Shown here piece by piece: positions 6,379 through 20,803 of a DNA stretch of 64,000 nucleotides (positions are counted from its first letter, which is position 1; every line of letters starts with the position of its first letter). The stretch is from Candidatus Woesebacteria bacterium GW2011_GWB1_39_10 (GTDB taxonomy: Bacteria > Patescibacteriota > Microgenomatia > UBA8517), in contig LBVU01000004.1 of the NCBI GenBank assembly GCA_000993205.1, forward strand, positions 124,113 through 188,112, written 5' to 3'. The notes beneath the pieces were generated by a model, which was not told the origin of the DNA, did not search any database, and saw only the letters and a program-made list of their open reading frames with translations. A program made the position numbers and the translations under genes.

Positions 6379-6386
6379 ATTTGGAA

Positions 6387-6938: not shown

Positions 6939-6948
6939 ACCATTATCA

Positions 6949-6972: not shown

Positions 6973-6977
6973 TATTT

Positions 6978-7877
6978 CTATAACCAATCTGAAACTATCT
7001 GTGCTAATTCCTTTTCTTTTCCGTTGAACCCATGGTCGGCGTCTTTGATAATTTCGTATTTGAATTGAGGCTTTAGATCTTTTAATATATTTACTAACTT
7101 AGGTATTTCACCCCAGGCATATTCGTCGTCTTCTCCGTAAACAACGAGTGAGGATTTATTTATCTCTTTAAAATATCTAAACAAAGGCCTTTCGGATATT
7201 TTCGCCAATCCCAACGCTTGAGAAAAAGGAAAACAATTGTAGTCACCGTCAGGATTTGCGACATCAAAAAACCCTTTATTGGAAAGGATTTCATCAAATT
7301 TAATTAATTCTTCAATAATCTGTTCACCTTCCCCTTTTCGTATTTTTTCTTTGCTTTTATTTAAAAGCTTAAAAAACATTTTATCATCTAAAAGATCGTA
7401 ATAAATACCTGTATCATCACCTCCGCAAATCAGCACATATTTTGAAAATTCGTTTTTGGGTTTGTAATGGTTATAAACGCAGATCTTATTAGCTCCCGTT
7501 GACTTTCCCATCAGATAAAACTCTTTATACCCCAAGCTTTTGACAAAATCTAAAGCTCCGTCAATATCTAATACACATTCTTTTATAATCTCGTAAGCAC
7601 ACCCGTAAGATTTTCTATCTTTTTTTATTTTTTTTAAATTAATGTTCAACTTTTTTATAATATGCGCACCTCTATTGTTAAATTTTAGAAGAGATATCCC
7701 ATTGTTTGTGAGTGCCTCGGGAAGCATTCTATGCTCACTCTCGTCGTAAAAGATTGAGGAACTTCCGTTTCCGTGAATATTAATCGCTATTTTTTCGGAA
7801 TTACTAACTTCATAAAGAAGTCCCGGGAGAACTAAATGGTCCTGAGTTTTTAATTCAATAAATTTAGGTTCATTCAT
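6978..7877 (-). CDS. Alpha/beta-hydrolase fold serine hydrolase (putative esterase)
   Basis: HG oxyanion motif (INIHGNGSS), nucleophile elbow G-K-S-T-G (LMGKSTGANK), and a C-terminal DADHGF placing Asp and His as in an S-D-H triad. 299 aa. Confidence 0.6.
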   Translation of the reverse strand: MNEPKFIELKTQDHLVLPGLLYEVSNSEKIAINIHGNGSSSIFYDESEHRMLPEALTNNGISLLKFNNRGAHIIKKLNINLKKIKKDRKSYGCAYEIIKECVLDIDGALDFVKSLGYKEFYLMGKSTGANKICVYNHYKPKNEFSKYVLICGGDDTGIYYDLLDDKMFFKLLNKSKEKIRKGEGEQIIEELIKFDEILSNKGFFDVANPDGDYNCFPFSQALGLAKISERPLFRYFKEINKSSLVVYGEDDEYAWGEIPKLVNILKDLKPQFKYEIIKDADHGFNGKEKELAQIVSDWL

Positions 7878-8474
7878 TTATTGGAAAAGTCTTGCCCTTC
7901 CTAATTTATAATTTGGATTTTTATTTTTGCGTTCTCCAATAACTTTGGCGGGGACTCCGCCAACAATTTCAAAATCCGAAACATCTTTTGTAACGACAGC
8001 TCCGGCAGCAACAACTGCGCCTTTACCGATTTTTACCCCCGGAAGAATAATCACTCTCGGCCCAATAAACACATGGTCTCCAATTGCAACTGGCTCGACT
8101 CTCGCAGAAAAATCTTCACCCTCCAAATCGTGCTCGGAGTTATAAATCATGACGCCCGATGCAATATCAACATGGCTCCCAATTGTCAAACGGTCTCTTC
8201 CGTCTAAAAACGCATGGTCACCGACAATCGTATCATCTCCAATAACAATATTATTCGGATCAAAGAAGTTTGCCCACATGTGGATAACTGAACCTTTTCC
8301 AATCTTCATACCGGACAGAATATAGAAAAGCTTCCTCAAAATATGAGATGGTATATGGCCCGCCCACCTTAATACCATTAACTCAAAATCCAAAAAATAA
8401 TTATACAAACGATTAAATATTTTTGGCAAGGCCTGACTCGGAGTCAAATTTTTTCCGGTTTTATCATTAAACAT
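7878..8474 (-). CDS. Hexapeptide-repeat (LbH) sugar O-/N-acetyltransferase, WbbJ/WcaF-like
   Basis: Repeated [LIV]-G-x-x-x-x hexapeptides (IGDDTIVGDHAFL, IGSHVDIASGVMI, IGDHVFIGPRVII, IGKGAVVAAGAVV). C-terminal GGVPAKVIGER. Confidence 0.85.
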   Translation of the reverse strand: MFNDKTGKNLTPSQALPKIFNRLYNYFLDFELMVLRWAGHIPSHILRKLFYILSGMKIGKGSVIHMWANFFDPNNIVIGDDTIVGDHAFLDGRDRLTIGSHVDIASGVMIYNSEHDLEGEDFSARVEPVAIGDHVFIGPRVIILPGVKIGKGAVVAAGAVVTKDVSDFEIVGGVPAKVIGERKNKNPNYKLGRARLFQ

Positions 8475-8492
8475 AATATTGGTAACTAAATT

Positions 8493-9620
8493 CTAACGAA
8501 CACCCTCAAGAATCCTCAAGGTTTCTCTGGCTGTCTTTTCCCAAGAAAACTTTTTCGCCTGAGCCAAACCACGGGCGATCATACTATTATACTTCGCTGT
8601 AGAAGCATTTATCACCTCTAAAATTCCGCTCGCTATGCTTTCTGCGTCTGTAGGATTAACCAATATTCCGCCATTCCCTACTACTTCCGGAAGGCTACCC
8701 ACACCAGACGCAACCACAGGCACCCCGCAAGCCATAGCGTTAACCGCGTCAAGTCCAAAACCCTCCCAGAAGGATGGCAATACAAATACTTTCGCCCCTT
8801 TTATTAAAGCCGGTTTGTCTTCATCGGAAACAAAATCTGTAAATATAATTTTGTCTTTTAATTTCAACTCGCTTACCTTCTTATATATCGAATCAAAAAG
8901 CCAACCCTTCTTTCCCGCAATAACAAGCTTGATTCCATACCTTGTGTTTCTGATTCGAGAAAAAGCATCTATCAAACCCTCTATATTCTTGCTGGGTTTG
9001 AGGGTTCCAAGATATAACACATAGTCATCAACTATGGAGTACCGATTTTTGACACGTCGCACATCTTTTTCTGAAATGTCAGGATTAAATCGTTTTGGGT
9101 CAAAACCCAAGTAAGTAACGTAAACTTTTTCTTTAGAAAACGGATAGTGTCGTACAATGTCTTTCTTTGTACTATTTGATATCGCAATGACCGACTTTGA
9201 TACTAAAATACTAATAGCACTCCACACCTTTAACTGCCAAAAGTCTTTTTTTTGAAATTGCCCCGTATATTCGAGGTATCCCAGGTCCATAATTGAACAA
9301 ACCTTGGGGATGGGAGCAAACATAGGAACATAATGACTTGGTGAGAAAAAAATGTCCGGTCTAGCCGGATCGAACAATAGATTTGGAATAAGCTTTGTCA
9401 TTACCCAAATCCCAACACTCGGAATAACTTTATATTTAAAGTTTTGCGTTTCCTTCGGCATATCAGATCTTGGGTCGTTTTTAAGATAAACTATAAGTTT
9501 ATGAGGATTTTCTTCTTTTTCCTGTAGTTTCTGCAAATTCCAAAGGATCTGAAAAGCATATTCGTTTATACCAACTCTCTTTTCTATATTAGCTTCATTT
9601 CCATCTATACCGATTATCAT
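8493..9620 (-). CDS. Glycosyltransferase family 4
   Basis: MIIGIDGNEANIEKRVGINEYAF N-terminal domain and FWEGFGLDAVNAMACGVPVVASGVGSLPEVV C-terminal motif. Confidence 0.85.
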   Translation of the reverse strand: MIIGIDGNEANIEKRVGINEYAFQILWNLQKLQEKEENPHKLIVYLKNDPRSDMPKETQNFKYKVIPSVGIWVMTKLIPNLLFDPARPDIFFSPSHYVPMFAPIPKVCSIMDLGYLEYTGQFQKKDFWQLKVWSAISILVSKSVIAISNSTKKDIVRHYPFSKEKVYVTYLGFDPKRFNPDISEKDVRRVKNRYSIVDDYVLYLGTLKPSKNIEGLIDAFSRIRNTRYGIKLVIAGKKGWLFDSIYKKVSELKLKDKIIFTDFVSDEDKPALIKGAKVFVLPSFWEGFGLDAVNAMACGVPVVASGVGSLPEVVGNGGILVNPTDAESIASGILEVINASTAKYNSMIARGLAQAKKFSWEKTARETLRILEGVR

Positions 9621-10714
9621 TTTACTCCTTCATTATATACTTCAAGTGTTTGTTTGGCAGTCGCCTCCCAAGAGAATTGTTTAACTCTCTCAAACCCATC
9701 CGTAATCAATCGTTTAGGTCCACGTAGCGCCTTAGTAATTCCTTCGGCAATAGAGTTGATGTCATATGGGTCCACCAGTACCGCAGCTCCTCCTGCGACC
9801 TCAGGCATCGAAGAAATATCAGACGTAACCACAGGAGTTCCACAGGCAAATGATTCTAGGATCGGCATTCCGTAACCCTCATACAATGATGGATAAACTA
9901 AAACCTCTGCCCCGGAATAAAAAACCGGTAATTCATTAAAAGAGACATGTCCCGCAACCCTTATATTTCTGGTTTCTTCAATTTTAGAGTATTTAGAATG
10001 TCCGACAAAAACGAGCTTCAGATCCATTCCCGCTCCTGCCAAATCAAAGGCTTTAATAATCCTATCGGTGTTTTTCCTTACGTTTATTCCTACCGCCAAA
10101 ACGTATTTACCAGATATTTTGTACCTTTTCTTTAACTTTTCGATTTCGTAATTCGTAGATGGTTTAAAAATGTTTGCCGGGGCTTCCGGAATCACTCTAA
10201 CAATATCACCTGTAAAACCCAAATTAATCAGATCGTTTTTAGTCGCAACCGACGGCACAACTATTCTCTCAGATTCTTTTTTTACCCACGAAAGCCTTAA
10301 TTTGTGTGTTTGAACAATGTCCCGAATTGTATCCCTTGGAAACAAGTTGGGATGCAGAATGGGAGCAAGGTCGTGAATGGTTGTTACTTTAAATGCTCTG
10401 GAAGGAGGCTCTGTCCAATCGGAAGTGTGGAGAACATCAACCGACCCCAACAGCTTTTCGATGGGCATCGTGTGAAGTTTGTTCCAAACCAGATTTGCAA
10501 ATATAGGAGGGTAGGCAAATATTTTAGATTGGACATTGGAAGCCCTAAAGCTCTGTGCTAAATGTTGAAGTTCCTTGTATCTTCTTAAAGACCCTCCAAA
10601 TAAAAGGTAGTCATTATTTTTGTCAAGAGACAAAAGCCCTTGCACTAAACTCTTAGTATAGGTAGAAACTCCGGTTCCAAAGATTGCCTGGGAAATATCA
10701 ATTGCTATTCGCAT
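9617..10714 (-). CDS. Glycosyltransferase family 4
   Basis: MRIAIDISQAIFGTGVSTY...YEGYGMPILESFACGTPVVTSDISSMPEVAGG. 4-bp overlap with the downstream gene. Confidence 0.85.
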   Translation of the reverse strand: MRIAIDISQAIFGTGVSTYTKSLVQGLLSLDKNNDYLLFGGSLRRYKELQHLAQSFRASNVQSKIFAYPPIFANLVWNKLHTMPIEKLLGSVDVLHTSDWTEPPSRAFKVTTIHDLAPILHPNLFPRDTIRDIVQTHKLRLSWVKKESERIVVPSVATKNDLINLGFTGDIVRVIPEAPANIFKPSTNYEIEKLKKRYKISGKYVLAVGINVRKNTDRIIKAFDLAGAGMDLKLVFVGHSKYSKIEETRNIRVAGHVSFNELPVFYSGAEVLVYPSLYEGYGMPILESFACGTPVVTSDISSMPEVAGGAAVLVDPYDINSIAEGITKALRGPKRLITDGFERVKQFSWEATAKQTLEVYNEGVK

Positions 10715-11999
10715 ATTTGTAAAAAACTACTCCGTTAAAGTTGGATTCCTGCGTCCTATTATAACCTAAACTTTCGATTTTCAGTCTCACAGAATCTTTT
10801 GGATCAAATATTTCCCAAACATACCTTGATAGCCAGATTTCAGTGTCACTCTTGCTAAGATCAGAGGTGCTCACAATCTGTCCACTCTTGCCGTAATAGA
10901 TCAATGCTTCTTTCTGTGAATTTGCCGGTAAAATTATCTTTTGATCTCCTATAGCATTTGCCGCACTCCTCCAATCTTCTCTTTGAAATCTGAAATCAGT
11001 TAAATAATAAAAAGTGCTCAGAATATTAACTGAAATTACTAAAACTAATAATATTTTTGAAAATTTTCCGGATTTTTCGACTCCTTTCGAAACCAACAAA
11101 CAAAATGCCGGCAAACAGAAAAGGAACCTGAAATATGCAAGCGTGGGTATTTTAAAACTAATCAAGACTCCGAGTACAATCGGCAACACAAACCAACCAC
11201 AAAGTAATCTGGAGCTTTTTCTAGCCTTGTATAATAGAAAGCCGAACAAACATATTCCAGCCGATGAAATCGCTGCATATAACAATTTATCATCGAAGCT
11301 AATTCTTCCAAAAATAAATTTAATTGGTATCAAGACTGTATTTTTAAAATTAGCTGGACCTAAAATATTCCACCAGGCAGAGTCCTTTAGAGAAATCCCG
11401 GACATGAGCTGTTTTTGAAATATTGGTAACCAAACAGCAAATACCGCAAGCATTGGAATATGACTTAATGCTAATTTTTTCCAATCTTTCAAACTAAAGA
11501 CCCAGAAAACCGGAATTACTAAAAGTGATGCATAATCCGTCATCGAAAGCATTGCCAAAATAATCGAGAAGTAAATCCACCTTTTTTCTAAAAATAAATA
11601 TATCAATACGGAAACCAACAGTGCGGCCAACGAATACATTCTTGCTTCTTGCGAATAATAAATATGCAGTCCCGAAATTGTCAAAAGTACCGAAGCGGTC
11701 AAACCAATATTTTTACTGAAAAGTTTTTTACCGACCAAATAAACTAGATAAACTGTTAAAATTCCAAAGATTATCGAAGGAGTGCGCAACGCAAGCTCCG
11801 AGTATCCAAAAAACCCCGACCAGAATTTTAAAACTAAATAATAAAAAGGGGGGTGGAAATCACCCGGCAAAAATTTAGTGAAAATATCACCTATGGGCAT
11901 TTTTGCAACCAACGCGCTGGTTGCCTCATCAAGCCATAAAGATTGATTCAGAGAAATCAAACGGAGAATCAACCCAAGGATAAGAATCAGGTATATCAT
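10698..11999 (-). CDS. ArnT/PMT_2-family GT-C glycosyltransferase (polyprenyl-phosphate-sugar-dependent)
   Basis: LWLDEATSALVAKMPIGDIF...PPFYYLVLKFWSGFFG aligns with the ArnT N-terminal loop (WQPDETRYAEISREML...KPIAGYWINSIGQWLFG). 433 aa, more than 10 TM helices. Confidence 0.8.
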   Translation of the reverse strand: MIYLILILGLILRLISLNQSLWLDEATSALVAKMPIGDIFTKFLPGDFHPPFYYLVLKFWSGFFGYSELALRTPSIIFGILTVYLVYLVGKKLFSKNIGLTASVLLTISGLHIYYSQEARMYSLAALLVSVLIYLFLEKRWIYFSIILAMLSMTDYASLLVIPVFWVFSLKDWKKLALSHIPMLAVFAVWLPIFQKQLMSGISLKDSAWWNILGPANFKNTVLIPIKFIFGRISFDDKLLYAAISSAGICLFGFLLYKARKSSRLLCGWFVLPIVLGVLISFKIPTLAYFRFLFCLPAFCLLVSKGVEKSGKFSKILLVLVISVNILSTFYYLTDFRFQREDWRSAANAIGDQKIILPANSQKEALIYYGKSGQIVSTSDLSKSDTEIWLSRYVWEIFDPKDSVRLKIESLGYNRTQESNFNGVVFYKYANSN

Positions 12000-12832
12000 T
12001 TGGCACCCTTCTTTGTAAACAAATATTCCAAAATCCCCACAAATATTCCAAAATCATAAACAATTTTGAAAATCGTAAATCGTAAATCATAAATCTTAAA
12101 TCCTTTATACATTCCGATAACCAATGAGGTCGGGAAAAATGCTCTAATTAGTCCTCCCAGATACCCCAAATACCCAAATTTATATTTTCTTTTGCCCGCC
12201 CATTTGGCCTGGTCAAATATCTCAACTAAATCTTCCGGATTTTTGTGATAGAAAATTGCTCCATCCGCACTTACCGCCTCATACCCCAACTTTTTATAAA
12301 GGCTCCAGTCATCATCGTAACCTCCGGGGGTAAACCCCCCTACTCTGTCAAATTCACTTTTTAGAATTGCCCTAAAAACCGGCTGGTGGTTAGAGTAGTT
12401 TTTGGGGTGACGGCGTTTAGGTTCCCAACCTTCGTTAATATTCCAGCACGTGGCCCAAACATTGTCCCAATTGGCAACATATTCCTCCTTGCTAAATGTT
12501 CCCCTCGCCCTTCCTTTTTCGATCGGCGCCGTCAATTTCTTTAAAAAATCCTTATCAAAAGTCATATCAGCATCCACAAAAACCAATATCTTGCCCTTTG
12601 CTTTACTTGCCCCCAAGTTTCTCGCCGCCCCCGCCCCACCATGCTCTGCATGGAATTTTCGAATTTCGAATTTCGAATTTCGAATTTCTGACAACAACTT
12701 CCAGGTGTTGTCAGTCGATCCATCATCCACAACAATCACTTCAAAATCACCATACGTTTGAAGACCCAACGACTCCAAACAGGCTTCCAAGTTTTGTCTT
12801 TCATTGTAGGTTGGAATTATTATCGAGATCAT
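11996..12832 (-). CDS. Glycosyltransferase family 2 containing in-frame heptanucleotide tandem repeats
   Basis: MISIIIPTYNERQNLEACLESL...VIVVDDGSTDNT...ILVFVDADMTF. The coding sequence contains (gaatttc)x4-5 at 12653-12688 and a (aaatcNt)x5 array plus a 20-bp duplication at 12019-12104. Confidence 0.85.
   Translation of the reverse strand: MISIIIPTYNERQNLEACLESLGLQTYGDFEVIVVDDGSTDNTWKLLSEIRNSKFEIRKFHAEHGGAGAARNLGASKAKGKILVFVDADMTFDKDFLKKLTAPIEKGRARGTFSKEEYVANWDNVWATCWNINEGWEPKRRHPKNYSNHQPVFRAILKSEFDRVGGFTPGGYDDDWSLYKKLGYEAVSADGAIFYHKNPEDLVEIFDQAKWAGKRKYKFGYLGYLGGLIRAFFPTSLVIGMYKGFKIYDLRFTIFKIVYDFGIFVGILEYLFTKKGAK
12019..12104. repeat. Direct repeats at the 3' end of the GT2 gene: 20-bp duplication (acaaatattccaaaatc...) and (aaatcgt / aaatcat / aaatctt / aaatcct) x5
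   Basis: Read directly at 12019-12055 and 12070-12104. Encodes the C-terminal KIYDLRFTIFKIVYDFGIFVGILEYLF segment. Confidence 0.85.
12653..12688. repeat. Heptanucleotide tandem repeat (gaatttc) x4 perfect, plus one imperfect unit, inside the GT2 coding sequence
   Basis: Sequence ggaattttc gaatttc gaatttc gaatttc gaatttc tg read directly. It encodes EIRNSKFEIRKFH between the DDGSTD and ARN motifs of the GT2. Confidence 0.9.
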
Positions 12833-12890
12833 CTGAGCTTCAATTATATACTCCTTTGAATAAATACATACAGAGGGTTAAAATGTCAGA

Positions 12891-13544
12891 ATGAGAAAAT
12901 CAAATCAGGTGGGGGCACATTTCGATAAAATTGCAAATTCTTATGATTTATATAAAAAAAATAACCAATACTATTACGACAACCTCAAAATACTTCTTGC
13001 GTCGTTCATTCACTCAAAATCAAAGGTATTAGAGATCGGTTGCGGCACCGGCGACCTGATTGCTTCTCTCAAGCCTGAGTATGGAATGGGCTTTGATATA
13101 AGCAATAAAATGATCGCTATCGCAAAAAGAAAACATAGAAATATTCATTTTTCAACGCATTGGCCAAAACAAAAATTTGATTACATTTTTATGAGTGATG
13201 TAGTAGAACATCTTGAATATCCGGACGAAACATTTCGTAAAATTTCCAAGCTCATGAATTGTAAATCTATATTTATTTGCACCATGGCAAATCCGAAACT
13301 GGAGCCAATTTTGATGATCGCAGAAAAAATGAAATTAAAAATGCCGGAAGGACCACATTATAGAATTAAGTACAAGGATCTAAGATCGATGATTGAAGAT
13401 TCCGGAATGGAAATAAGAGAGCACAATTTTAAACTTTTAATACCAATCAAAATTCCGCTTATTACCTATTTTGCAAATAAATATTTGGAGAGGTTTTTTA
13501 GAAAATACGCATTTATTGAATACTTTACGGCTACCAAGTCTTAA
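12891..13544 (+). CDS. Class I SAM-dependent methyltransferase
   Basis: Motif I VLEIGCGTGDL. Motif II region DYIFMSDVVEHL. 217 aa. Confidence 0.85.
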   Translation: MRKSNQVGAHFDKIANSYDLYKKNNQYYYDNLKILLASFIHSKSKVLEIGCGTGDLIASLKPEYGMGFDISNKMIAIAKRKHRNIHFSTHWPKQKFDYIFMSDVVEHLEYPDETFRKISKLMNCKSIFICTMANPKLEPILMIAEKMKLKMPEGPHYRIKYKDLRSMIEDSGMEIREHNFKLLIPIKIPLITYFANKYLERFFRKYAFIEYFTATKS

Positions 13545-14697
13545 ACTCTTTAAAAGCGGAGGCAGCTGTAGCAAGAAGCATTAATCCGTGTTTAAATCTC
13601 CTAATATTGGTTGCCCCATATACTCTTTCTTTATATCTAACCGGAATTTCCACAACTTTCAGATTATTTCTGACTGCGCCAAATATCAAATCAAAATCTC
13701 CAAAAGGATCAGACTTTGAGTGTTTAAAATTCATATAATCTTTTCGGAAAAAGGCTTTCGTTCCACAAAGAGTATCTTTAAATCTCTGTCCCAAGATCCA
13801 GGAAAATATTAAGCTGAACATTTTGTTACCGATTTTGTTTAATGTCTGCATGGCTTGGGCTTCCATGGGGTAAACCAGCCGGCTGCCGTTGGCAAATTCT
13901 CCGACTCCGTCGGATAGGGCGTTGTAAAATTTATTCAAGTCACTGCCGTCCACAGTCCTGTCCGCGTCATATATCATTAATATTTCATTTGATGCTTTTG
14001 AAAAACCCATTCTTACGGCATCTGCTTTTCCAATTCCCTTCTGTTTAAAAACTTTTACATTTCCATGCTTGGCCGCCACTTTTTTGATTTCGTCCCATGT
14101 TGCGTCATTCGAATGTCCTTCAATAAATATGTACTCTTGAGCTTTCCCAAAAATGGGAATTGAGGGAATAATTTTTGCGATATTCTTTTCTTCGTTCCTT
14201 GCCGGAATGATTATGGAAACTGAATATTTTTTAGCCCCAATTGGCTTGGGCCTGGCAATAACCAGAGTTATTAAACAAAAATTATTTAATATGGGCAAGT
14301 TTGCCAGATATTTATTGAAAAATTCCGTGATCAAGGGAATTATGACGGGTATTAGAACTCTTTTTTGTGTACTAATTACCTCAAATCCGGCGAGGTTTAA
14401 AAGTCCCGCCAAGTCGTATTCGTCTAACCAGTTTTGAGTACCAACAGTTCTTCTTAGCCCCAATTTTGACGCAAAAGATAAGAGCGGTTCCCAAAGATGA
14501 TTGTAATATGTTATTAGGATTCTAGTGTTTTCCGGTTTTGCCTTGTGAAGTTTTTCAAAATATTTTTGCAAATCGGGAGTACTCCCGATCACATTGTCCA
14601 AAACCACAACATTTTTTCCTTTCCGACCACCCAAGAATCTTTTGTGAATTTTTAGAAGTTCTTTTTTATAAAATTTTTGAAAGATATTGTCCGCCAT
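13531..14697 (-). CDS. GT2 glycosyltransferase (DPM1/GtrB-like catalytic domain) fused to an N-terminal methyltransferase-like domain with a degenerate SAM motif
   Basis: The C-terminal half has YSVSIIIPARNEEKNIAKII...MIYDADRT..GTKAF. The N-terminal roughly 150 aa align with the neighbouring methyltransferase: ILITYYNHLWEPLLSFASKLGL versus IFICTMANPKLEPILMIAEKMKL, and KRVLIPVIIPLITEFFNKYL versus FKLLIPIKIPLITYFANKYL. Motif I is replaced by VVVLDNVIGSTPD. Confidence 0.8.
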   Translation of the reverse strand: MADNIFQKFYKKELLKIHKRFLGGRKGKNVVVLDNVIGSTPDLQKYFEKLHKAKPENTRILITYYNHLWEPLLSFASKLGLRRTVGTQNWLDEYDLAGLLNLAGFEVISTQKRVLIPVIIPLITEFFNKYLANLPILNNFCLITLVIARPKPIGAKKYSVSIIIPARNEEKNIAKIIPSIPIFGKAQEYIFIEGHSNDATWDEIKKVAAKHGNVKVFKQKGIGKADAVRMGFSKASNEILMIYDADRTVDGSDLNKFYNALSDGVGEFANGSRLVYPMEAQAMQTLNKIGNKMFSLIFSWILGQRFKDTLCGTKAFFRKDYMNFKHSKSDPFGDFDLIFGAVRNNLKVVEIPVRYKERVYGATNIRRFKHGLMLLATAASAFKEFKTW

Positions 14698-15645
14698 CTA
14701 TTTTCTAAGTAAACCAATGCCTGTTTCTATATCAATTTTGGCTTTCCAGGAAATTATCTTTTGTGCAAGGTGGCTATCGGAATATTTCCTTCTTTCTTCA
14801 TATTCCCCCCGGGGGTTGGGACGGATGTATATCGTCTTCCCTCCAATTATTCCAACCAGATCGTTTACAGAAACTTCTTTACCAAAACCGATATTCAATA
14901 TTATGTTTTTACCTTTTACAAGCGGGTTTTTCATCGCCTTATAATTTGCGGCAACTACATCATCAATATATGTATAATCTCTTGTTTGTTTCCCGTCACC
15001 AAAAACCGTCAGATTTTCATCCCGATCGGAAGACTTAAGAAACTTACCGATTACCAATGAATATTCTCCCGTATCGGGCTGCCTTTTGCCATAAACATTA
15101 AAATATCTAAGGGAGGCAACCCTAAGCCCGAATTTATCTGCATAAAATGTGCAATACATTTCAGACATCAGTTTTTGGATTGCATAATGAGAAATGGGAT
15201 TCGGGATCATCTTTTCATTCATCTTGGCAATTTTTTGCAATCCATAAACGCTTGATGATGATGAAAATATAAATTTTTCCACTTGTGTAACTTTGGCCGC
15301 TTCAAGCATTGAAAGCGTCGCTCTAACGTTCGCCTCGTGAGTGCCGACGGGATCATCTACCGATCTTAATATTCTGGGAAGGGCGGCAACATGATGAATT
15401 GTCGCAGGTTTAATTTTTGCCACCAGTTCAGAAACTTTTTTTGCATTGGTCAAATCAACCAGAACAAAATTAGCTTTTGGATTCACGAATTCCCTTCTTC
15501 CTGAAGAAAGATTGTCAAACACATAAACCTTGTAACCCTTCTCTATGAGAAAGTCTACAAGGTTGCTGCCGATAAAACCTGCGCCGCCTGTCACAAGGAC
15601 ACAAGGATTAGAAACTTTCGAGTAATTTTTCATATTGAAGCGCAA
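14698..15645 (-). CDS. NAD-dependent epimerase/dehydratase (extended SDR, UDP-hexose 4-epimerase-like)
   Basis: VLVTGGAGFIGSNLVDFL Rossmann motif, SSSSVYG, and catalytic YxxxK (YAIQK). The likely start is the internal Met at MKNYS. Confidence 0.85.
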   Translation of the reverse strand: MRFNMKNYSKVSNPCVLVTGGAGFIGSNLVDFLIEKGYKVYVFDNLSSGRREFVNPKANFVLVDLTNAKKVSELVAKIKPATIHHVAALPRILRSVDDPVGTHEANVRATLSMLEAAKVTQVEKFIFSSSSSVYGLQKIAKMNEKMIPNPISHYAIQKLMSEMYCTFYADKFGLRVASLRYFNVYGKRQPDTGEYSLVIGKFLKSSDRDENLTVFGDGKQTRDYTYIDDVVAANYKAMKNPLVKGKNIILNIGFGKEVSVNDLVGIIGGKTIYIRPNPRGEYEERRKYSDSHLAQKIISWKAKIDIETGIGLLRK

Positions 15646-16534
15646 TTATATCCCATTCAAATTTTTTTGCTTGTCGAATTGCTTTTTCAGACCATTTACC
15701 CTCCAAAACTGTTTTAATAGCCTTCGCATAGCCGGCAGTATCGGTGGGGTCAACTAATATCCCAGCATCACCAACAATTTCTTTTCTTATCGAATCATCT
15801 GTAGCTACAACCGGAAGGCCGGACGCCATTGCCTCTACCAATACATTTCCAAACGACTCAGATAATGCCGAGGGAAGGGTAAATACATCTGCCGCCCGGT
15901 AAACTTCAGGCATTTTCTCAAACGGAACACTCATTAATTTGAATCCATCACCCAATAATCGTTTACCTTCCTCACGAAGTTTTTCCTTTAAATCCCCGCC
16001 CCCGCCGACCATTAACAAACTCGCTCCAATCTTGGCCACAGCTTTAATCGCCAGATCCATTCTTTTTTGTTCAGTAAATGCCCCGACTGCTAAAACAATT
16101 GGCTTTTTTAAACTAACATGCAAGGACTGTCCTTGCATGTTAAATTTCTTAAGATCGACACCGTTGGGAATATAAACAGATTTTACAAAGGGATTGACTC
16201 CCTTTGCCCAAATTAACGCTTTAGTAGAAAGAGCGACGAAGATGTCCGGAAAACAGTAGAGATTAACTCTGTCATCCAAACCTTTCCCGGATTGACCCGA
16301 AACAATCATTTTTGCACCTGTCAGCCATGTAATAATTCTTACGATAACTACCTGTAAACGACCGTTTGTAGGAATTATTACATCGTATTTTTTCTTTAAC
16401 ATGTCAAAATAATTTACCTTTGAGATAGTATCAACTTCGTGATTTTTGGACAAACGTTTGGAAAGTTCGTATACAAAAGTTTCAGCCCCCCTATAAACTT
16501 TGTTTTGATAAATATTTATAAATGCTATCTTCAT
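15608..16534 (-). CDS. Glycosyltransferase family 4
   Basis: SESFGNVLVEAMASGLPVVATDDSIRKEIVGDAGILVDP. Confidence 0.85.
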   Translation of the reverse strand: MKIAFINIYQNKVYRGAETFVYELSKRLSKNHEVDTISKVNYFDMLKKKYDVIIPTNGRLQVVIVRIITWLTGAKMIVSGQSGKGLDDRVNLYCFPDIFVALSTKALIWAKGVNPFVKSVYIPNGVDLKKFNMQGQSLHVSLKKPIVLAVGAFTEQKRMDLAIKAVAKIGASLLMVGGGGDLKEKLREEGKRLLGDGFKLMSVPFEKMPEVYRAADVFTLPSALSESFGNVLVEAMASGLPVVATDDSIRKEIVGDAGILVDPTDTAGYAKAIKTVLEGKWSEKAIRQAKKFEWDIIALQYEKLLESF

Positions 16535-17922
16535 ACGTCCCCCTTTTTATACCAAACTTCAACTCCTGATCTTGTATTTTCTTTATGTACGTAATTTTTC
16601 GATATCCACTCAAAGATTATTTTGGGTTGGTAAGTTCCTAAATCAAACCAATTTCCAGGTGTAGGTGGTGTCCAGAAAATAATTTTTGGCGGGTTGGTCT
16701 CCCACCCCGCAATTACTTTTTCTTGCAAACCCGGAACTTCAAAATGCCAAACATAATTTTCAATCCAAGGTTTTGGTGGGATTCTACCGGCGTAAACATA
16801 TATTACAGAGTTTGGTCCTAATAAATAAATTTCATCGTTTGAGGTAGTAACCGAAACTATGTATTGAGCTAGTTGAATTTCGCTGTTTCCATAAAACCTG
16901 ACCACATCATTGAATTCAGGTAATATAAGTCTATATCTGTACAGACCTACATAAAACAAGGCCAATAATGCGAATGTCAAAAACATTTTATTCTTTTGCG
17001 ATATCAAAAATACAACCGCTATAACAAAGAAAGCTAAGAATGGCTGTAGATGAAAAAAGGAAAATCTGGGAAATGCTGATACAAGTAATGTTGACATGAC
17101 ACCGTAAATAAGTATTGTTTTAATATCATAAGTTTTCTTCCGAATACTTGACAATACCGCCGGAAGCGGAGAAATCATCATTAAAATTATTACAAGCAAT
17201 TCTTTTTTACCCGGCAGAATTTTATATCCCGAAAATTCAGGTAGCCAGAAAAGCGGAAATTGAAAGGTCCAGAAAAGATAATCATTAAAATCACCTTTAA
17301 GTACTAAAAGGAAAATCAACCCCAATAATGGAATCGTTCCCCCTGCAGCAAAAATTACAAACTCTTTAAATGAAATCTTTTTAGCCAAAAGGTAAACAAA
17401 AATCGGCAATCCCGCCAGTACCGCCTGTTGCTTTATCAGGCAAGCCAGAGCAAGAAAAAATCCTGAAAGGAAGATATCCTGCCATTTATTTTTGAACGGC
17501 CGTTTGGAAACAAAATAGACTGATAAAAGAAGTGGAATAATCATGGCAATATCGAACCACATCATATTTCCCTCAAATAGAGGCTGGAATACAATATATA
17601 AGCCCAATGGAATTAACGATACCCATTTGTTTTTAAATAACTGTTTTGAAACAACGAAAATCAGCAAATCGATTATTAATATCGATATCCATGTAAATAT
17701 CTTAAGCGATTCCGGAGAAAAACCTGCAAATTTGTAATACATAAGTAAAATAAAAGTCAGTAGCGGTTGGTAAACGTGGTGAAAATCCTTGTATATCAAA
17801 AAACCTTTATCAACCATGTACGGGAACGAGAGCATTTCCGGCCAGGCGGTAAACTGCAGTCTTGAAAGAATAAACAGGTGTATCCCTAAAAGTCCTAATA
17901 ATGTTACGTATATTCTTTTCAT
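16531..17922 (-). CDS. Polytopic membrane protein, probable GT-C-type glycosyltransferase of unassigned family
   Basis: 463 aa, at least 10 hydrophobic helices, with a conserved-looking first loop (PYMVDKGFLIYKDFHHVYQP). No soluble catalytic domain is present. Embedded among glycosyltransferase genes. Confidence 0.4.
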   Translation of the reverse strand: MKRIYVTLLGLLGIHLFILSRLQFTAWPEMLSFPYMVDKGFLIYKDFHHVYQPLLTFILLMYYKFAGFSPESLKIFTWISILIIDLLIFVVSKQLFKNKWVSLIPLGLYIVFQPLFEGNMMWFDIAMIIPLLLSVYFVSKRPFKNKWQDIFLSGFFLALACLIKQQAVLAGLPIFVYLLAKKISFKEFVIFAAGGTIPLLGLIFLLVLKGDFNDYLFWTFQFPLFWLPEFSGYKILPGKKELLVIILMMISPLPAVLSSIRKKTYDIKTILIYGVMSTLLVSAFPRFSFFHLQPFLAFFVIAVVFLISQKNKMFLTFALLALFYVGLYRYRLILPEFNDVVRFYGNSEIQLAQYIVSVTTSNDEIYLLGPNSVIYVYAGRIPPKPWIENYVWHFEVPGLQEKVIAGWETNPPKIIFWTPPTPGNWFDLGTYQPKIIFEWISKNYVHKENTRSGVEVWYKKGDV

Positions 17923-18701
17923 TTATTTTTGGCAATTATACTCATGCTATCACCCATATTTAATAAGGTTGCTAGAAAAGAATAGGGCAAGAATAAAATG
18001 TTAACAAAAAAACGTTTTTTGAAAATAGAAAATGACTGCCACAATTCCGATAGTGGATTGGCGAACTCAAAAAGACCGGATCTGCTTTCAAAATGGATTA
18101 TTTTAAATTTCGCGTTTATAATTTTCTTGGAAAGCGAGTCTTTAGTAAACTGGTAGTTGTGTTCATTGGGCAATTTTAGCGTCCATTTATCCCCCATTAT
18201 TTTTGACCCTAAACCACCAGCGTTGGGAACATCAACGTATAATATTCCGCCTTTTTTCAAAATTCTATGTATTTTTTTTAAAATCAAATCGGCATCATCG
18301 ACATGTTCCAGAGTGTGGTTCATTATCACCAAATCAAAAGAATTATCGGGAAAAGATGATTTTTCAAAATATATTCTCGAAATCTTATGTCCCTTTCTTT
18401 CCGCCGTCATACCCGATTCGGATGGTTCAACACCAAAAGTTTGCCACCCACGTTCTTTGCAAATATCCAGAAAGACTCCATTTGAACAACCAATATCTAA
18501 AACTTTACCCCTCGAAGCCCTGAGCAAAGTCGAATGGGCGAAGTGGGGCCATATTATATTAAAACGCTTTAAAAATATATTTCTAAACAATCTCTCGTTT
18601 TCAATATAGTCCGTATCCCTGTGATAATTATTATAGTTAGTACCCATGTTTTTGAAATCTAAGTAGTGTCCGTCTATATATTTTACGTAACGGGGTTTCA
18701 A
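17919..18701 (-). CDS. Class I SAM-dependent methyltransferase
   Basis: VLDIGCSNGVF motif I, DLVIMNHTLEHV motif II, and GGILYVDVPN. Confidence 0.85.
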   Translation of the reverse strand: MKPRYVKYIDGHYLDFKNMGTNYNNYHRDTDYIENERLFRNIFLKRFNIIWPHFAHSTLLRASRGKVLDIGCSNGVFLDICKERGWQTFGVEPSESGMTAERKGHKISRIYFEKSSFPDNSFDLVIMNHTLEHVDDADLILKKIHRILKKGGILYVDVPNAGGLGSKIMGDKWTLKLPNEHNYQFTKDSLSKKIINAKFKIIHFESRSGLFEFANPLSELWQSFSIFKKRFFVNILFLPYSFLATLLNMGDSMSIIAKNK

Positions 18702-19467
18702 TAAAAGCTCTGAATTTGTACTTCAGGTCGGGAGTATTCCAAACCGATGTGACAATTTTTGGTCTATCCTTAAAAAAAACTTCTGGGAAATAAAAATCTT
18801 TAGGAAATTCGTCACCTATTTCATACTTCAGTTTCTTAGATCTTTTATATACATCTTGATTTTTATCGGACCGGCGCAAGTGAGTTGCATGCAAATAAGG
18901 TGCTTCTACGAAAATCATTTTAGATTGATTCCTTTTTTCGATTCTTTTTCCTTCTGCGTCAAACCAGCCAAAGATTCCATGTTTTCCTTTTGTGGTAAGT
19001 CCCGGAATATGCCTATTAAAGGCTCGCAGAGCATAGTGACCAACCTTGCTCGCAAGATTATATCTGCCAGCTTTTTTTTCCTGATAATGGAATATGTCAC
19101 CAACCAAATTATATGTGGGTACAACGATCGATTCTATGTTGTCGCCACTCGAATTAATCGTATCAACAACTTGCTTTATCGAATCATCCCACCATACTTC
19201 ATCCGCATCTACAATAATTACCCAGTCACAATCATCTTTCTGAAGCATTTCATCTCTAATTTTTGCTTCATCAAACTTATTTACAGACAATTTTTTAAAA
19301 TCAATGTTTTCATTCAATTTCATAATATTCTCTATAATTTCTATTGTGCCATCGGTACTTCCTGTATCCCATATATGGGCCCTATCAACGTATTTAATAA
19401 CAGACATTATTGAATACCAGGCAAATCTATTTTCATTTTTTAATAAAATGTGGGTACTAATTTTCAT
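18637..19467 (-). CDS. GT2-like glycosyltransferase (Glyco_tranf_2_4 type)
   Basis: HILLKNENRFAWYSIMSV...WDTGSTDGTIEII followed by VIIVDADEVW (DxD). Confidence 0.6.
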   Translation of the reverse strand: MKISTHILLKNENRFAWYSIMSVIKYVDRAHIWDTGSTDGTIEIIENIMKLNENIDFKKLSVNKFDEAKIRDEMLQKDDCDWVIIVDADEVWWDDSIKQVVDTINSSGDNIESIVVPTYNLVGDIFHYQEKKAGRYNLASKVGHYALRAFNRHIPGLTTKGKHGIFGWFDAEGKRIEKRNQSKMIFVEAPYLHATHLRRSDKNQDVYKRSKKLKYEIGDEFPKDFYFPEVFFKDRPKIVTSVWNTPDLKYKFRAFIETPLRKIYRRTLLRFQKHGY

Positions 19468-20803
19468 TTTTAGAATGTCTAAATTTAGCCAGAACCCAAA
19501 GGCCGGGAACTATAAAATTAAATATATTTCCTAAAAGTACGGCGTATGCGGCTCCCATAAAACCATAGTTTGATATAAGATACCATCCTGCACCAACGGT
19601 AATTAGAATGTTTCCGAAAGAAATAAAAACAAAAAGTTTCGGGTACTCAAAATAATAGAATATGGATGTATGGGCGGGAACTGATATCAAAAAGATCGCT
19701 TGAGCAAAAAGTAAAACAATAAAAGGACCGATTGCCTGTAAATAACTGCCCCCGTATAAGATCGGTATTATAAATTTTGACAAGGGTATCCCGACAGCGA
19801 TCCCAAAAATTGCCATAAAAATTGTAAAAATCTGAACTTTTTTGAGATACAACTTTGCCTTTAAATCTGAGTCAAATCCCGCAAGCTTGGGGGCTACAAC
19901 GGTACCAATAGCAAAGACGATCTGTGGAATAATACTGGAGAGCTGTAGTGCCGAAGAATAAATCCCGACATCATGCAGTGATAAAAGACTTGTTGAAAGT
20001 AATGTGTCAACCCTGCCTCCGAATGCTGCAACCAGTGTAAACAACGCAATCCAAATGTTATAACGGAAAAATTCACCGGCAACCTCTTTTTCATTTTCAA
20101 CATCAAAGAATTTAGGCAAAAACATGAGTCCCGCCAAAAAACCCAAAAAAGGAACCAAAATATACACGCTCAAAAAAGTGTTTGCACTCAAGAAACCAAA
20201 ATAGATAAGAGCCAAGGTTATCAAAAGGCGTATTAAATTTGTACCAATATTAACGCCATTCCAAATCCAGTATTTTTGAAGAGATTGGAGAGCGTATGTA
20301 GAAAAGGAAAAAAGTAAATAGCTTCCCACACCAATAAGAGCAAGGCGCATAGGAAAAATAAGTTCTGGTTTGGCAAAAAATCCATTTACAATCCCCGGCA
20401 CCAGGAACCAGCCTATGGATAAAACTGCAAGCCAGATCATAATCCGGACCTTCAGTGACAATTTTAGAAACTTGAATGCGCGAATCTTATCGGTATTTAT
20501 GTACTTACCTACAAATCGCACCATTCCGGTATCGCTGCCTACGTTGGCAATATCCCCAATGAGTGTTAGGATGGCAACAGAGACCGAAAAGGTTCCAAAA
20601 GCCGCCGGACCAAGTTGTCTTGCTAAAACAAAATAAAATACTAAGCCAAGAATTCCGTTTACAATAGTTCCGGATGATGTAATTAATGTCTGAGAAATAG
20701 TCTTTGTGGACAGAATTTCCTTTACTTTATCTAGATTTACGGTAAATCGCATATGCCAAGTATGACACAAGAAGCACTGAAATTGAACCCAAACTGATTC
20801 CAT
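19457..20803 (-). CDS. wzx: Wzx-type oligosaccharide flippase (MOP/PST superfamily polysaccharide biosynthesis protein)
   Basis: About 14 TM helices, glycine-rich hydrophobic profile, N-terminal ...TLITSSGTIVNGILGLVFYFVLARQLGPAAFG typical of the PST family. The probable true start is the internal MRFTVNLDKV (about 20752). Confidence 0.8.
   Translation of the reverse strand: MESVWVQFQCFLCHTWHMRFTVNLDKVKEILSTKTISQTLITSSGTIVNGILGLVFYFVLARQLGPAAFGTFSVSVAILTLIGDIANVGSDTGMVRFVGKYINTDKIRAFKFLKLSLKVRIMIWLAVLSIGWFLVPGIVNGFFAKPELIFPMRLALIGVGSYLLFSFSTYALQSLQKYWIWNGVNIGTNLIRLLITLALIYFGFLSANTFLSVYILVPFLGFLAGLMFLPKFFDVENEKEVAGEFFRYNIWIALFTLVAAFGGRVDTLLSTSLLSLHDVGIYSSALQLSSIIPQIVFAIGTVVAPKLAGFDSDLKAKLYLKKVQIFTIFMAIFGIAVGIPLSKFIIPILYGGSYLQAIGPFIVLLFAQAIFLISVPAHTSIFYYFEYPKLFVFISFGNILITVGAGWYLISNYGFMGAAYAVLLGNIFNFIVPGLWVLAKFRHSKNEN

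What the first reader, a model, noticed from the sequence alone, without database searches (positions are those of the whole stretch)
12891..14697. Convergent gene pair in which a GT2 carries a degenerate copy of its neighbour's methyltransferase fold
The N-terminal roughly 150 aa of the GT2 at 13531..14697 align along their length with the stand-alone methyltransferase at 12891..13544 (for example ILITYYNHLWEPLLSFASKLGL versus IFICTMANPKLEPILMIAEKMKL). The SAM-binding GxGxG is replaced by DNVIGSTPD. This suggests a catalytically dead methyltransferase-like module retained as a binding or scaffolding domain. The two genes overlap tail-to-tail by 14 bp. This looks like local duplication and fusion, and it may link methylation and glycosyl transfer on the same substrate.
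Basis: seen in the sequence. Interest (0 to 1): 0.5.

Follow-up and report, generated by a model that had tools for sequence, protein, structure and literature searches.

The report
Glycosyltransferase carrying a dead half-methyltransferase remnant
A sugar-transferring enzyme in an ultra-small (CPR) bacterium keeps a conserved remnant of a methyltransferase domain that has lost its cofactor-binding half; the remnant descends from an old, widespread two-enzyme fusion and is not a copy of the intact methyltransferase gene beside it, so this is a tidy but fairly ordinary case of a domain becoming a pseudo-enzyme.

Summary
Both ORFs and their 14-bp tail-to-tail overlap are real. The similarity between them is well beyond chance (BLASTP E=1e-11; Smith-Waterman z=17; family profiles 99.6%, E=3e-24). 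The GT2 N-terminus matches the MT's N-terminal helix and its C-terminal half (strands b4-b7). The MT's SAM-binding core (b1-b3, including GCGTG) is deleted, not mutated. DNVIGSTPD aligns with the MT's SDVVEHLEYPD.

The module is not a copy of its neighbour. It is 35-49% identical to the matching half of the MT domain in full-length, roughly 470-aa MT-GT2 fusions from many phyla, but only 26% identical to the neighbour. NCBI names those fusions [quoted passage not shown].

The SAM-binding half was lost in one Patescibacteria clade and, independently, in Omnitrophota. The remnant is under strong purifying selection (dN/dS about 0.07). Every truncated CPR locus examined (8/8) has the intact stand-alone MT nearby, against 3 of about 70 full-length loci.

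The GT2 domain resembles polyprenyl-phosphate glycosyltransferases (DPMS, ArnC, GtrB). It lies in a 30-kb envelope-glycan cluster with four GT-C enzymes.

Verdict: a pseudo-methyltransferase module kept for a non-catalytic role. This is a new variant of a known kind and of modest interest.

The parts
12891..13544 (+). Stand-alone class I SAM-dependent methyltransferase, 217 aa, intact. It is the only + strand gene in a run of - strand genes spanning about 30 kb.
   Evidence: ORF. Pfam Methyltransf_23 E=4e-17, 62.8 bits against a cut-off of 27. 100% identical to 'Methyltransferase type 12 [Microgenomates group bacterium GW2011_GWC1_39_7b]'. Strand context.
13038..13052 (+). Motif I (G50-C-G-T-G54) of the stand-alone MT, the SAM-binding loop. 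It has no counterpart in the GT2.
   Evidence: G50, C51, T53 and G54 are invariant in the 48-sequence family alignment. The motif lies in the stretch with no counterpart in the GT2 family profile.
13179..13541 (+). C-terminal half of the stand-alone MT (residues 97-217: b4-b7 plus the b6-b7 insertion). This is the part homologous to the GT2 module.
   Evidence: BLASTP, hhalign, and tblastn of the module against the window hitting 13179-13487.
13531..13544 (.). 14-bp tail-to-tail overlap of the two stop regions.
   Evidence: The same 14-bp overlap is present in L001, L082 and L083.
13531..14697 (-). 388-aa protein: a pseudo-methyltransferase module fused to a GT2 (GT-A) catalytic domain.
   Evidence: ORF. 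The start codon abuts the stop of the upstream epimerase gene (14698..15645), so no longer N-terminus is possible. AF2 model pLDDT 88.3, pTM 0.86.
14230..14697 (-). Pseudo-MT module, residues 1-156: N-terminal helix (5-22), deletion scar, then b4 (30-34), b5 (59-65), b6 (105-113), a helical insertion (about 121-138) and b7 (143-150).
   Evidence: hhalign against the MT family: 99.6%, E=3e-24. Pfam Methyltransf_23 profile positions 83-163 of 164, E=3.7e-5, 23.9 bits, below the cut-off of 27. Secondary structure. In Foldseek the top 50 PDB hits are all class I MTs. dN/dS 0.06-0.07.
14614..14634 (-). Deletion scar, residues about 22-28 (LGGRKGK). In full-length fusions this position holds roughly 55-60 residues forming b1, motif I, b2 and b3.
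   Evidence: Alignment of full-length and truncated forms and hhalign.
13534..14229 (-). GT2 / GT-A catalytic domain, residues 157-388, of the polyprenyl-phosphate glycosyltransferase type. It ends in an amphipathic helix (367-385) and has no C-terminal TM helices.
   Evidence: Pfam PF00535 E=1e-17. NCBIfam AglJ E=4e-34, below its cut-off. PDB sequence hits DPMS 5mlz, ArnC and GtrB. Foldseek hits ArnC 9b77 at E=2e-14, DPMS and GtrB.
13960..13968 (-). DxD motif (D244-A-D246) of the GT2 domain.
   Evidence: D244 and D246 are invariant in 64 homologues. The motif aligns with DAD of DPMS 5mlz.

Best explanation
The 388-aa protein is the Patescibacteria (Microgenomates/Woesebacteria-type) descendant of an ancient, widespread bifunctional enzyme. 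That enzyme has an N-terminal class I SAM-dependent methyltransferase fused to a C-terminal GT2 of the polyprenyl-phosphate glycosyltransferase type.

In this lineage an internal deletion of roughly 55 residues, plus loss of the extreme N-terminal cap, removed strands b1-b3 and with them motif I and the rest of the SAM site. What remains is one N-terminal helix, the b4-b5-b6-b7 half-sheet and the b6-b7 insertion. This remnant is a pseudo-enzyme module.

Shown: its homology, its origin from the fused MT rather than from the neighbour, the absence of the SAM-binding elements, strong purifying selection, and recurrent independent loss of the same half in another phylum.

Inferred: the remnant is kept because the GT2 half needs it, as a structural support, an oligomerisation surface, or a membrane- or acceptor-binding surface. 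This fits a GT2 domain that lacks the C-terminal TM helices of DPMS, GtrB and ArnC. Whatever methylation the pathway still needs would then be supplied in trans by the intact paralogous MT encoded convergently next door.

Also inferred: the GT2 half makes a polyprenyl-phosphate-linked hexose that feeds the four GT-C enzymes of the surrounding 30-kb envelope-glycan cluster.
For: Homology and register:
- BLASTP E=1e-11.
- Shuffle z=17 for the C-terminal half and z=0.8 for the N-terminal half.
- hhalign 99.6%, E=3e-24, with MT residues about 44-95 unmatched.

No SAM motif:
- None of the 120 closest homologues has GxGxG in its first 150 residues.
- The AF2 models show only four strands in the module.
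- Foldseek of the module alone hits only class I MTs, best E=5e-5.

Origin:
- Orthologues at 47-51% identity in other phyla are in-frame MT-GT2 fusions of about 465-480 aa with E[IV]GCGxG.
- The module is 35-49% identical to their C-terminal MT half and 26% identical to the neighbour.
- NCBI names the full form 'bifunctional class I SAM-dependent methyltransferase/glycosyltransferase family 2 protein'.

Decay series and independent loss:
- The alignment shows intermediate forms.
- On a catalytic-domain NJ tree the CPR truncated forms are monophyletic, while truncated Omnitrophota L039 and L072 nest among full-length Omnitrophota and Planctomycetota forms.

Selection:
- dN/dS is 0.074 and 0.063 for the module, 0.040 and 0.041 for the catalytic domain, and 0.127 for the neighbour MT.
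- Y10, N66, W69 and W90 are invariant.

Structural integration (weak evidence):
- pLDDT of residues 111-140 is 85-86 in the full-length model but 55-66 in the isolated module.

Conserved pairing:
- The stand-alone MT subfamily is present at 8 of 8 truncated CPR loci (window, L001-L004, L007, L082, L083). It is convergent and abutting in 7 of them.
- It is present at 3 of about 70 full-length loci.
- At least 23 contig lengths are shared between the GT2 and MT hit lists.

GT2 type and context:
- DPMS, ArnC and GtrB are the best sequence and fold matches, and the DAD motif is conserved.
- The cluster holds three PMT_2 GT-C enzymes, one AftD-like GT-C, Wzy_C and a Wzx-like flippase.
Against: - No direct evidence shows what the remnant does. 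The scaffold role is argued from conservation and from a pLDDT difference only.
- The link to the neighbour MT is correlative, and the eight CPR loci are phylogenetically non-independent.
- The two independently truncated Omnitrophota loci have no such MT within 4 kb.
- Three full-length fusions also have the stand-alone MT directly downstream (L006, L028, L054). The neighbour is therefore not simply a replacement that arose after the loss.
- Some CPR members (359-377 aa) have also lost the b6-b7 insertion, so that element is not indispensable.
- The polyprenyl-phosphate acceptor is inferred from homology below every curated NCBIfam cut-off. The protein also lacks the TM helices of its solved relatives.
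- No member of the family, full-length or truncated, was found characterised in the literature searched.
Confidence: 0.7

Rival explanations
1. One reading: the neighbouring methyltransferase gene was duplicated locally, the copy fused to the GT2, and the copy then degenerated, with GxGxG mutated to DNVIGSTPD.
For: The two genes are adjacent and clearly homologous.
Against: - The module is closer to fused MT domains of distant phyla (35-49% identity) than to its neighbour (26%).
- The fusion architecture is present in many phyla with an intact MT.
- The b4 motif D-x-x-I-G-D-x-x-D-x-Q is already typical of full-length fused MTs, whereas the neighbour type has SDVxEH.
- GxGxG lies in a deleted segment and was not substituted.
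Confidence: 0.03
2. Pseudo-enzyme/enzyme pair: the half-MT module is kept mainly as a docking surface for the intact neighbouring MT. It would form a pseudo-dimer through the conserved C-terminal-half surface, so that methylation and glycosyl transfer are physically coupled. This would be analogous to METTL14 supporting METTL3.
For: - The two are paralogues that share the whole C-terminal half, including the unusual b6-b7 insertion (IP-L-I-T-x-F-x-N-K-Y-L).
- Co-location is strict in the CPR clade, 8 of 8, with a conserved tail-to-tail overlap.
- The module is under purifying selection.
- There is a precedent for pseudo-methyltransferase partners (PMC6112310).
Against: - No interaction evidence exists, and no complex prediction was possible with these tools.
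- Truncated Omnitrophota forms have no such neighbour.
- The 359-377-aa CPR forms have lost the shared insertion yet keep the neighbour.
- Residues invariant in the module (N66, W69, W90, the QNWLD block) differ from those invariant in the MT family (KMPEGPHxR, H178).
Confidence: 0.2
3. The remnant is a neutral relic or mere linker with no function of its own. Alternatively, the short N-terminus is an artefact, such as a wrong start, a frameshift or a pseudogene.
For: - The Pfam hit to the module is below the gathering threshold.
- The module evolves somewhat faster than the catalytic domain.
- Module size varies among CPR members from 334 to 445 aa total protein length.
Against: - dN/dS of 0.06-0.07 is lower than for the intact neighbour MT.
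- Residues are invariant across 64 sequences.
- The same half was retained after an independent loss in Omnitrophota.
- More than 100 cluster representatives at 90% identity have the same intact ORF architecture.
- The ORF start abuts the upstream gene's stop, and no start codon lies further upstream in frame.
- No SAM-half remnant occurs elsewhere in the window.
Confidence: 0.05

Closest known systems
Bifunctional class I SAM-dependent methyltransferase / glycosyltransferase family 2 protein (NCBI protein name; about 465-480 aa; Bacteroidota such as Saccharicrinis, Carboxylicivirga, Maribellus and Thermophagus, and many other phyla)
   Same: The GT2 domain is orthologous (50-59% identity). 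The C-terminal half of the MT domain is collinear, including the YYN-x-x-WEP and QNWLD blocks and the b6-b7 insertion (35-49% identity). The domain order is the same.
   Different: The window protein lacks the N-terminal cap, b1, motif I (E-I-G-C-G-x-G), b2 and b3, so it cannot be bifunctional. In its clade it is always accompanied by a separate intact MT paralogue. As far as my searches show, the full-length family is itself uncharacterised experimentally.
Polyprenyl-phosphate glycosyltransferases of family GT2: DPMS (PDB 5mlz), ArnC (9b77, 9bhc), GtrB (5ekp, 9nyd), archaeal AglJ
   Same: GT-A fold, a DxD (DAD) motif, and a C-terminal amphipathic helix after the catalytic domain. These are the best sequence and structure matches. 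The genomic context, with GT-C enzymes that consume polyprenyl-phosphate sugars, also fits.
   Different: There are no C-terminal transmembrane helices. An N-terminal 156-residue pseudo-MT module is present instead. Scores are far below the curated cut-offs for AglJ and its relatives (118 bits against 325).
Pseudo-methyltransferase domain of animal fatty acid synthase (Psi-ME / Psi-MT)
   Same: A class I MT-derived domain inside a multidomain enzyme. It is catalytically inactive, structurally important, and derived from an active MT in related enzymes (PMC10764717).
   Different: The FAS pseudo-MT keeps a recognisable whole-domain fold (from my own knowledge). Here half of the Rossmann sheet is physically deleted. 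The protein context and lineage are unrelated, so the resemblance is one of principle, not of membership.
METTL14 in the METTL3-METTL14 m6A writer
   Same: A pseudo-methyltransferase paralogue that supports an active methyltransferase paralogue (PMC6112310). This is relevant to the docking rival.
   Different: METTL14 is a separate, full-length MT-fold protein acting on RNA. No interaction has been shown here.

Membership tests
Class I SAM-dependent methyltransferase (GT2 residues 1-156) | Motif I (GxGxG-type loop after strand b1) that contacts SAM | tested here: not met
   Absent from the window protein and from all 120 closest homologues. The region has no counterpart in the profile-profile alignment or in the multiple alignment with full-length fusions.
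Class I SAM-dependent methyltransferase (GT2 residues 1-156) | Acidic residue at the end of b2 that binds the ribose hydroxyls | tested here: not met
   The b2 segment (G-x-D-I-S in the MT family, with D69 invariant) lies inside the deletion.
Class I SAM-dependent methyltransferase (GT2 residues 1-156) | Seven-stranded sheet (order 3-2-1-4-5-7-6) | tested here: not met
   The AF2 models show four strands only (30-34, 59-65, 105-113, 143-150).
Class I SAM-dependent methyltransferase (GT2 residues 1-156) | Sequence and fold homology to the family | tested here: met
   hhalign 99.6%, E=3e-24. In Foldseek the top 50 PDB hits are all class I MTs. Pfam PF13489 E=3.7e-5, but 23.9 bits is below the cut-off of 27. 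The module is homologous but not a functional member.
Class I SAM-dependent methyltransferase (stand-alone protein 12891..13544) | Pfam score above threshold, motif I present, b2 acidic residue present | tested here: met
   PF13489 62.8 bits against a cut-off of 27. G50, C51, T53, G54 and D69 are invariant.
Bifunctional class I SAM-dependent MT / GT2 family protein | Orthologous GT2 domain with a collinear MT-derived N-terminal region | tested here: met
   47-56% identity over query residues 1 or 29 to 386 in 80 loci. Module 35-49% identity and catalytic domain 50-59% identity to full-length forms.
Bifunctional class I SAM-dependent MT / GT2 family protein | Complete MT domain capable of binding SAM (this is what makes the protein bifunctional) | tested here: not met
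   See the rows above. The window protein is therefore a derived, monofunctional variant of this family.
Polyprenyl-phosphate glycosyltransferase (DPMS / GtrB / ArnC type GT2) | GT-A fold with a DxD motif | tested here: met
   Foldseek ArnC E=2e-14, DPMS E=9e-14, GtrB E=2.5e-10. DAD 244-246 aligns with DAD of 5mlz. D244 and D246 are invariant.
Polyprenyl-phosphate glycosyltransferase (DPMS / GtrB / ArnC type GT2) | C-terminal transmembrane helices anchoring the enzyme | tested here: not met
   The protein ends after one helix (367-385). The most hydrophobic 19-residue windows lie at 105-149 in the module, and the model folds these as b6, insertion and b7.
Polyprenyl-phosphate glycosyltransferase (DPMS / GtrB / ArnC type GT2) | Transfer of a sugar from a nucleotide sugar to polyprenyl phosphate | not testable with these tools
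   Inferred only from homology and from the presence of four GT-C genes in the cluster. All NCBIfam hits are below their cut-offs.
Pseudo-enzyme scaffold domains (for example Psi-MT of FAS) | Loss of catalytic or cofactor residues together with retention under purifying selection | tested here: met
   Loss. Selection: dN/dS 0.06-0.07.
Pseudo-enzyme scaffold domains (for example Psi-MT of FAS) | Demonstrated structural or regulatory role | not testable with these tools
   There is only an indirect hint. The b6-b7 insertion is modelled confidently only when the GT-A domain is present.

The most novel reading that the evidence does not exclude
The half-methyltransferase module is a dedicated docking platform. 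It pairs with the intact neighbouring paralogue through the shared b4-b7 half, forming an enzyme/pseudo-enzyme heterodimer on the glycosyltransferase. A lipid-linked sugar would then be made and methylated in one complex. The recurrent loss of only the SAM-binding half would reflect a general route by which fused methyltransferases turn into adaptor domains.
Probability: 0.2. Interest if true: 0.5.

Novelty: new variant of a known kind. Interest (0 to 1): 0.3.

Why it matters
- **Annotation.** Hundreds of Patescibacteria proteins labelled simply "glycosyltransferase", some carrying a sub-threshold Methyltransf_23 hit, are derived monofunctional versions of a bifunctional MT-GT2 enzyme. They should not be predicted to methylate anything.
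- **Evolution.** This is a clean natural example of a pseudo-enzyme arising by physical deletion of half a Rossmann fold. It happened at least twice independently, and the substrate-side half was kept each time. That argues the retained half does something for the glycosyltransferase. It also gives a ready-made experiment, comparing the full form with the natural deletion, for a widespread fusion family that is still uncharacterised.
- **Envelope biology.** The protein sits in the main envelope-glycan cluster of a CPR bacterium, an organism whose surface chemistry is largely unknown.
- **Overall.** None of this overturns current understanding. It is a modest, well-defined refinement.

Tried and rejected
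- **Transmembrane hairpin.** The hydrophobic stretch 113-150 looked like a possible TM hairpin. Its Kyte-Doolittle maxima lie there, but both AF2 models fold it as b6, a short helical insertion and b7 of the MT fold. I rejected it as a classical TM anchor. A peripheral membrane role is not excluded.
- **Split enzyme.** I searched the whole window with the N-terminal halves of seven full-length fusions. The only hit was the stand-alone MT itself. Rejected.
- **Wrong start or frameshift.** The ORF start abuts the upstream stop, and the same architecture is seen in more than 100 homologues. Rejected.
- **Promoters and terminators.** The scan around the convergent pair found promoter-like sites at the shuffle level (9 against 7.6 expected) and no terminators. 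It was uninformative.
- **Neighbourhood census.** Pfam analysis of the immediate neighbours at 75 loci showed that generic class I MTs are the commonest neighbour (12 of 75 upstream, 23 of 75 downstream). There was no otherwise conserved context, so it did not reveal the substrate.
- **Exhaustive representative search with the module.** It found 914 clusters, 441 of them at E<=1e-10. Many are metagenomic fragments, so my architecture tally was too noisy to use beyond family size.
- **Literature.** Searches for the fusion family and for CPR pseudo-enzymes found nothing specific.
- **Curated families.** NCBIfam gave no curated family for either protein.
Full report
**1. What is at the coordinates**

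The two ORFs exist exactly as described. One is a 217-aa protein on the + strand (12891..13544). The other is a 388-aa protein on the - strand (13531..14697). Their stop regions overlap by 14 bp: TAA at 13542-13544, and TAG at 13531-13533 on the - strand.

The 217-aa protein is a clear class I SAM-dependent methyltransferase (Methyltransf_23, 62.8 bits against a cut-off of 27). The 388-aa protein has a GT2 domain from residue about 160 onward.

The MT is 100% identical to a protein of "Microgenomates group bacterium GW2011_GWC1_39_7b", so the window comes from a CPR/Patescibacteria genome. The MT is the only + strand gene in a run of - strand genes from 579 to 30162.

**2. Is the similarity real?**

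Yes. BLASTP aligns MT 97-199 with GT2 29-131 without gaps, at 29% identity and E=1e-11.

A Smith-Waterman score of 117 compares with 31 +/- 5 for 2000 shuffles (maximum 77), giving z=17.

**3.

MT residues 1-96 hold the SAM-binding motif G50-C-G-T-G54. They show no similarity to the GT2 N-terminus (z=0.8).

Pfam matches the GT2 N-terminus only to profile positions 83-163 of the 164-position Methyltransf_23 model. The score (E=3.7e-5, 23.9 bits) is just below the gathering threshold.

I compared a 48-sequence alignment of the MT family with a 64-sequence alignment of the GT2 family. The result was 99.6% probability and E=3e-24. It shows the following:
- MT 24-43 (an N-terminal helix, YY-x-N-L-K-x-L-L) aligns with GT2 6-24.
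- MT residues about 44-95 have no counterpart. This stretch contains b1 with motif I, b2 with the acidic residue, and b3.
- MT 96-217 aligns collinearly with GT2 28-151, right to the MT's C-terminal end.

DNVIGSTPD therefore aligns with SDVVEHLEYPD (strand b4 and the following turn). GxGxG has been deleted, not replaced.

**4. This is a family feature, not a local event**

The 120 closest homologues (53-90% identity, 334-445 aa, named Microgenomates or Patescibacteria where named) all share the I-L-D-N-x-I-G-D-x-x-D-L-Q ... Y-Y-N-H-L-W-E-P block. None has a GxGxG in the first 150 residues.

The convergent MT/GT2 pair with the same 14-bp overlap recurs in relatives at 90%, 82% and 73% identity (L082, L083, L001). 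At least 23 contig lengths are shared between the GT2 and MT hit lists.

**5. Where the module comes from**

A scan of one genome per species found at least 596 relatives. Outside Patescibacteria the orthologue is 47-51% identical over query residues 29-386. It occurs in Bacteroidota, Nitrospirota, Omnitrophota, Verrucomicrobiota, Deltaproteobacteria, Elusimicrobia, a Peribacteria MAG, an archaeal MAG and others.

In those genomes it is an in-frame protein of about 465-480 aa. Its N-terminus is a complete MT domain with E-[IV]-G-C-G-x-G. NCBI names such proteins [quoted passage not shown].

Over the module (residues 29-151), the window protein is 35-49% identical to the equivalent half of these fused MT domains. 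It is only 26% identical to its own neighbour.

The b4 motif of full-length fused MTs is already D-Y-I-I-x-S-D-x-x-G-x-x-x-D-x-Q. The neighbour type instead has S-D-V-x-E-H-L-E-x-P and a K-M-P-E-G-P-H-x-R block.

The module is therefore orthologous to the ancient fused MT domain, and the neighbour is a more distant paralogue. The local duplication-and-fusion reading is not supported.

**6. A decay series and independent losses**

The alignment shows graded states:

| State | Examples |
|---|---|
| Full MT domain | L006, L011, L012, L045, L059, L018 |
| Degenerate motif I (VLEIEPRGGE) with partial deletion | L053 |
| b1 remnant kept, but motif I through b3 deleted | Omnitrophota L039 and L072; 410-aa CPR forms P0022 and P0071 |
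| b1 also lost (388 aa) | window, L001 |
| b6-b7 insertion additionally lost (359-377 aa) | L002, L007, P0027 |

On a neighbour-joining tree of the catalytic domain alone, the CPR truncated forms are one clade. The truncated Omnitrophota forms nest among full-length Omnitrophota and Planctomycetota proteins. The SAM-binding half was therefore lost at least twice, and the C-terminal half was kept each time.

**7. Is the remnant functional?**

Nei-Gojobori estimates against the 90%-identical relative give:
- dN/dS = 0.074 for the module (dS 0.71).
- dN/dS = 0.040 for the catalytic domain.
- dN/dS = 0.127 for the intact neighbour MT.

Against the 82% relative, the module gives 0.063 and the catalytic domain 0.041. 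Y10, N66, W69 and W90 are invariant in 64 sequences. This is strong purifying selection and not neutral decay.

**8. Structure**

The full-length AF2 model is confident (pLDDT 88.3, pTM 0.86). The module has one long N-terminal helix and four strands (30-34, 59-65, 105-113, 143-150) with intervening helices, followed by the GT-A domain.

The hydrophobic stretch 113-150 is modelled as b6, a helical insertion and b7. It is not modelled as transmembrane helices.

Modelled alone (pLDDT 76), the module finds only class I SAM methyltransferases among its top 50 PDB matches (best 3l8d, E=5e-5, TM about 0.5). With b1-b3 gone there is no canonical SAM pocket.

Residues 111-140 are confident in the full-length model (85-86) but not in isolation (55-66). 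This is a weak hint that the insertion leans on the GT-A domain.

**9. The GT2 half and its setting**

The best sequence and fold matches are polyprenyl-phosphate glycosyltransferases:
- DPMS 5mlz (profile E=1e-16).
- ArnC (Foldseek E=2e-14).
- GtrB.
- NCBIfam AglJ at E=4e-34, below its cut-off.

The DAD motif (244-246) is invariant and aligns with that of DPMS. Unlike those enzymes, the protein has no C-terminal TM helices.

The surrounding 30-kb - strand cluster encodes five GT2, four GT4, three PMT_2-type GT-C enzymes and a 1163-aa AftD-like GT-C. It also encodes Wzy_C, a Wzx-like flippase, an epimerase, a hexapeptide acyltransferase and three further MTs. A polyprenyl-phosphate-sugar synthase feeding GT-C enzymes fits this setting. 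That is inference only.

**10. Relation to the neighbour**

The specific stand-alone subfamily (PEGxH, NPxWEP) is distributed as follows:
- Present at all eight truncated CPR loci examined, and convergent and abutting in seven of them.
- Present directly downstream on the same strand at only 3 of about 70 full-length loci (L006, L028, L054).
- Absent within 4 kb at the two truncated Omnitrophota loci.

The pair thus probably predates the deletion. Having a second MT nearby may have made the fused MT's activity dispensable. The correlation rests on one clade and is not proof.

No separate gene for the missing SAM half exists in the window.

**11. Comparison with what is known**

The protein is a derived, monofunctional variant of the annotated but, as far as my searches show, uncharacterised bifunctional MT/GT2 family.

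In principle it resembles the pseudo-methyltransferase domain of animal fatty acid synthase, which is inactive but structurally important (PMC10764717). If the docking rival is right, it would resemble METTL14 supporting METTL3 (PMC6112310). These are analogies, not memberships.

**12. Verdict**

The homology, the overlap and the absence of a SAM motif are real. The alignment register and the "replacement" of GxGxG are wrong.

A dead, retained MT-like module is supported. Local duplication and fusion is not.

This is a new variant of a known kind. Interest is modest (0.3).

Noticed in passing
window 579..30162: About 30 kb of genes, almost all on the - strand, form one large envelope-glycan cluster. 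It holds five GT2, four GT4, three PMT_2-type GT-C, Wzy_C, a Wzx-like flippase, an epimerase, a hexapeptide acyltransferase and several class I MTs. The MT at 12891..13544 is the only + strand gene, which looks like a single-gene inversion. That inversion is conserved in relatives (L001, L082, L083).
   Followed up: partly
window 26006..29497 (-): A 1163-aa ORF whose only Pfam hit is a marginal match to the AftD-type arabinofuranosyltransferase GT-C domain (27.1 bits against a cut-off of 26). This is unusual for a CPR genome and is otherwise unannotated.
   Followed up: no
window 20727..23255 (-), 23427..24230 (-) and 6387..6938 (-): ORFs of 842, 267 and 183 aa inside the glycan cluster have no Pfam match at E<=1e-5.
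   Followed up: no
L006:5077-5796, L028:5117-5827, L054:1498-2211: In three non-CPR genomes the full-length MT-GT2 fusion is followed directly, on the same strand, by a stand-alone MT of the same subfamily as the window's MT (PEGxH and NPxWEP motifs). This may be the ancestral arrangement from which the CPR pair arose by inversion plus decay of the fused MT.
   Followed up: partly
L053 (Gammaproteobacteria MAG), fusion ORF of 442 aa: An intermediate decay state. Strand b1 is kept, but motif I reads VLEIEPRGGE and part of b2-b3 is deleted. This is a separate lineage from both the CPR and the Omnitrophota truncations.
   Followed up: partly
P0285 (913 aa), P0298 (936 aa), P0364 (880 aa): Cluster representatives in which the MT-GT2 unit starts at around residue 450-560. 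These are longer fusions carrying an additional, unexamined N-terminal region.
   Followed up: no
75 loci, immediate neighbours of the fusion gene: Generic class I methyltransferases (Methyltransf_11) are the most frequent neighbours of the full-length fusion across phyla (12 of 75 upstream, 23 of 75 downstream). The pathway may therefore involve more than one methylation.
   Followed up: partly
L003:5192-5851 (-): The stand-alone MT next to this truncated CPR form did not match my simple patterns for motif I and PEGxH, although it scores 340 bits against the family profile. It may be a diverged or itself degenerating copy.
   Followed up: no
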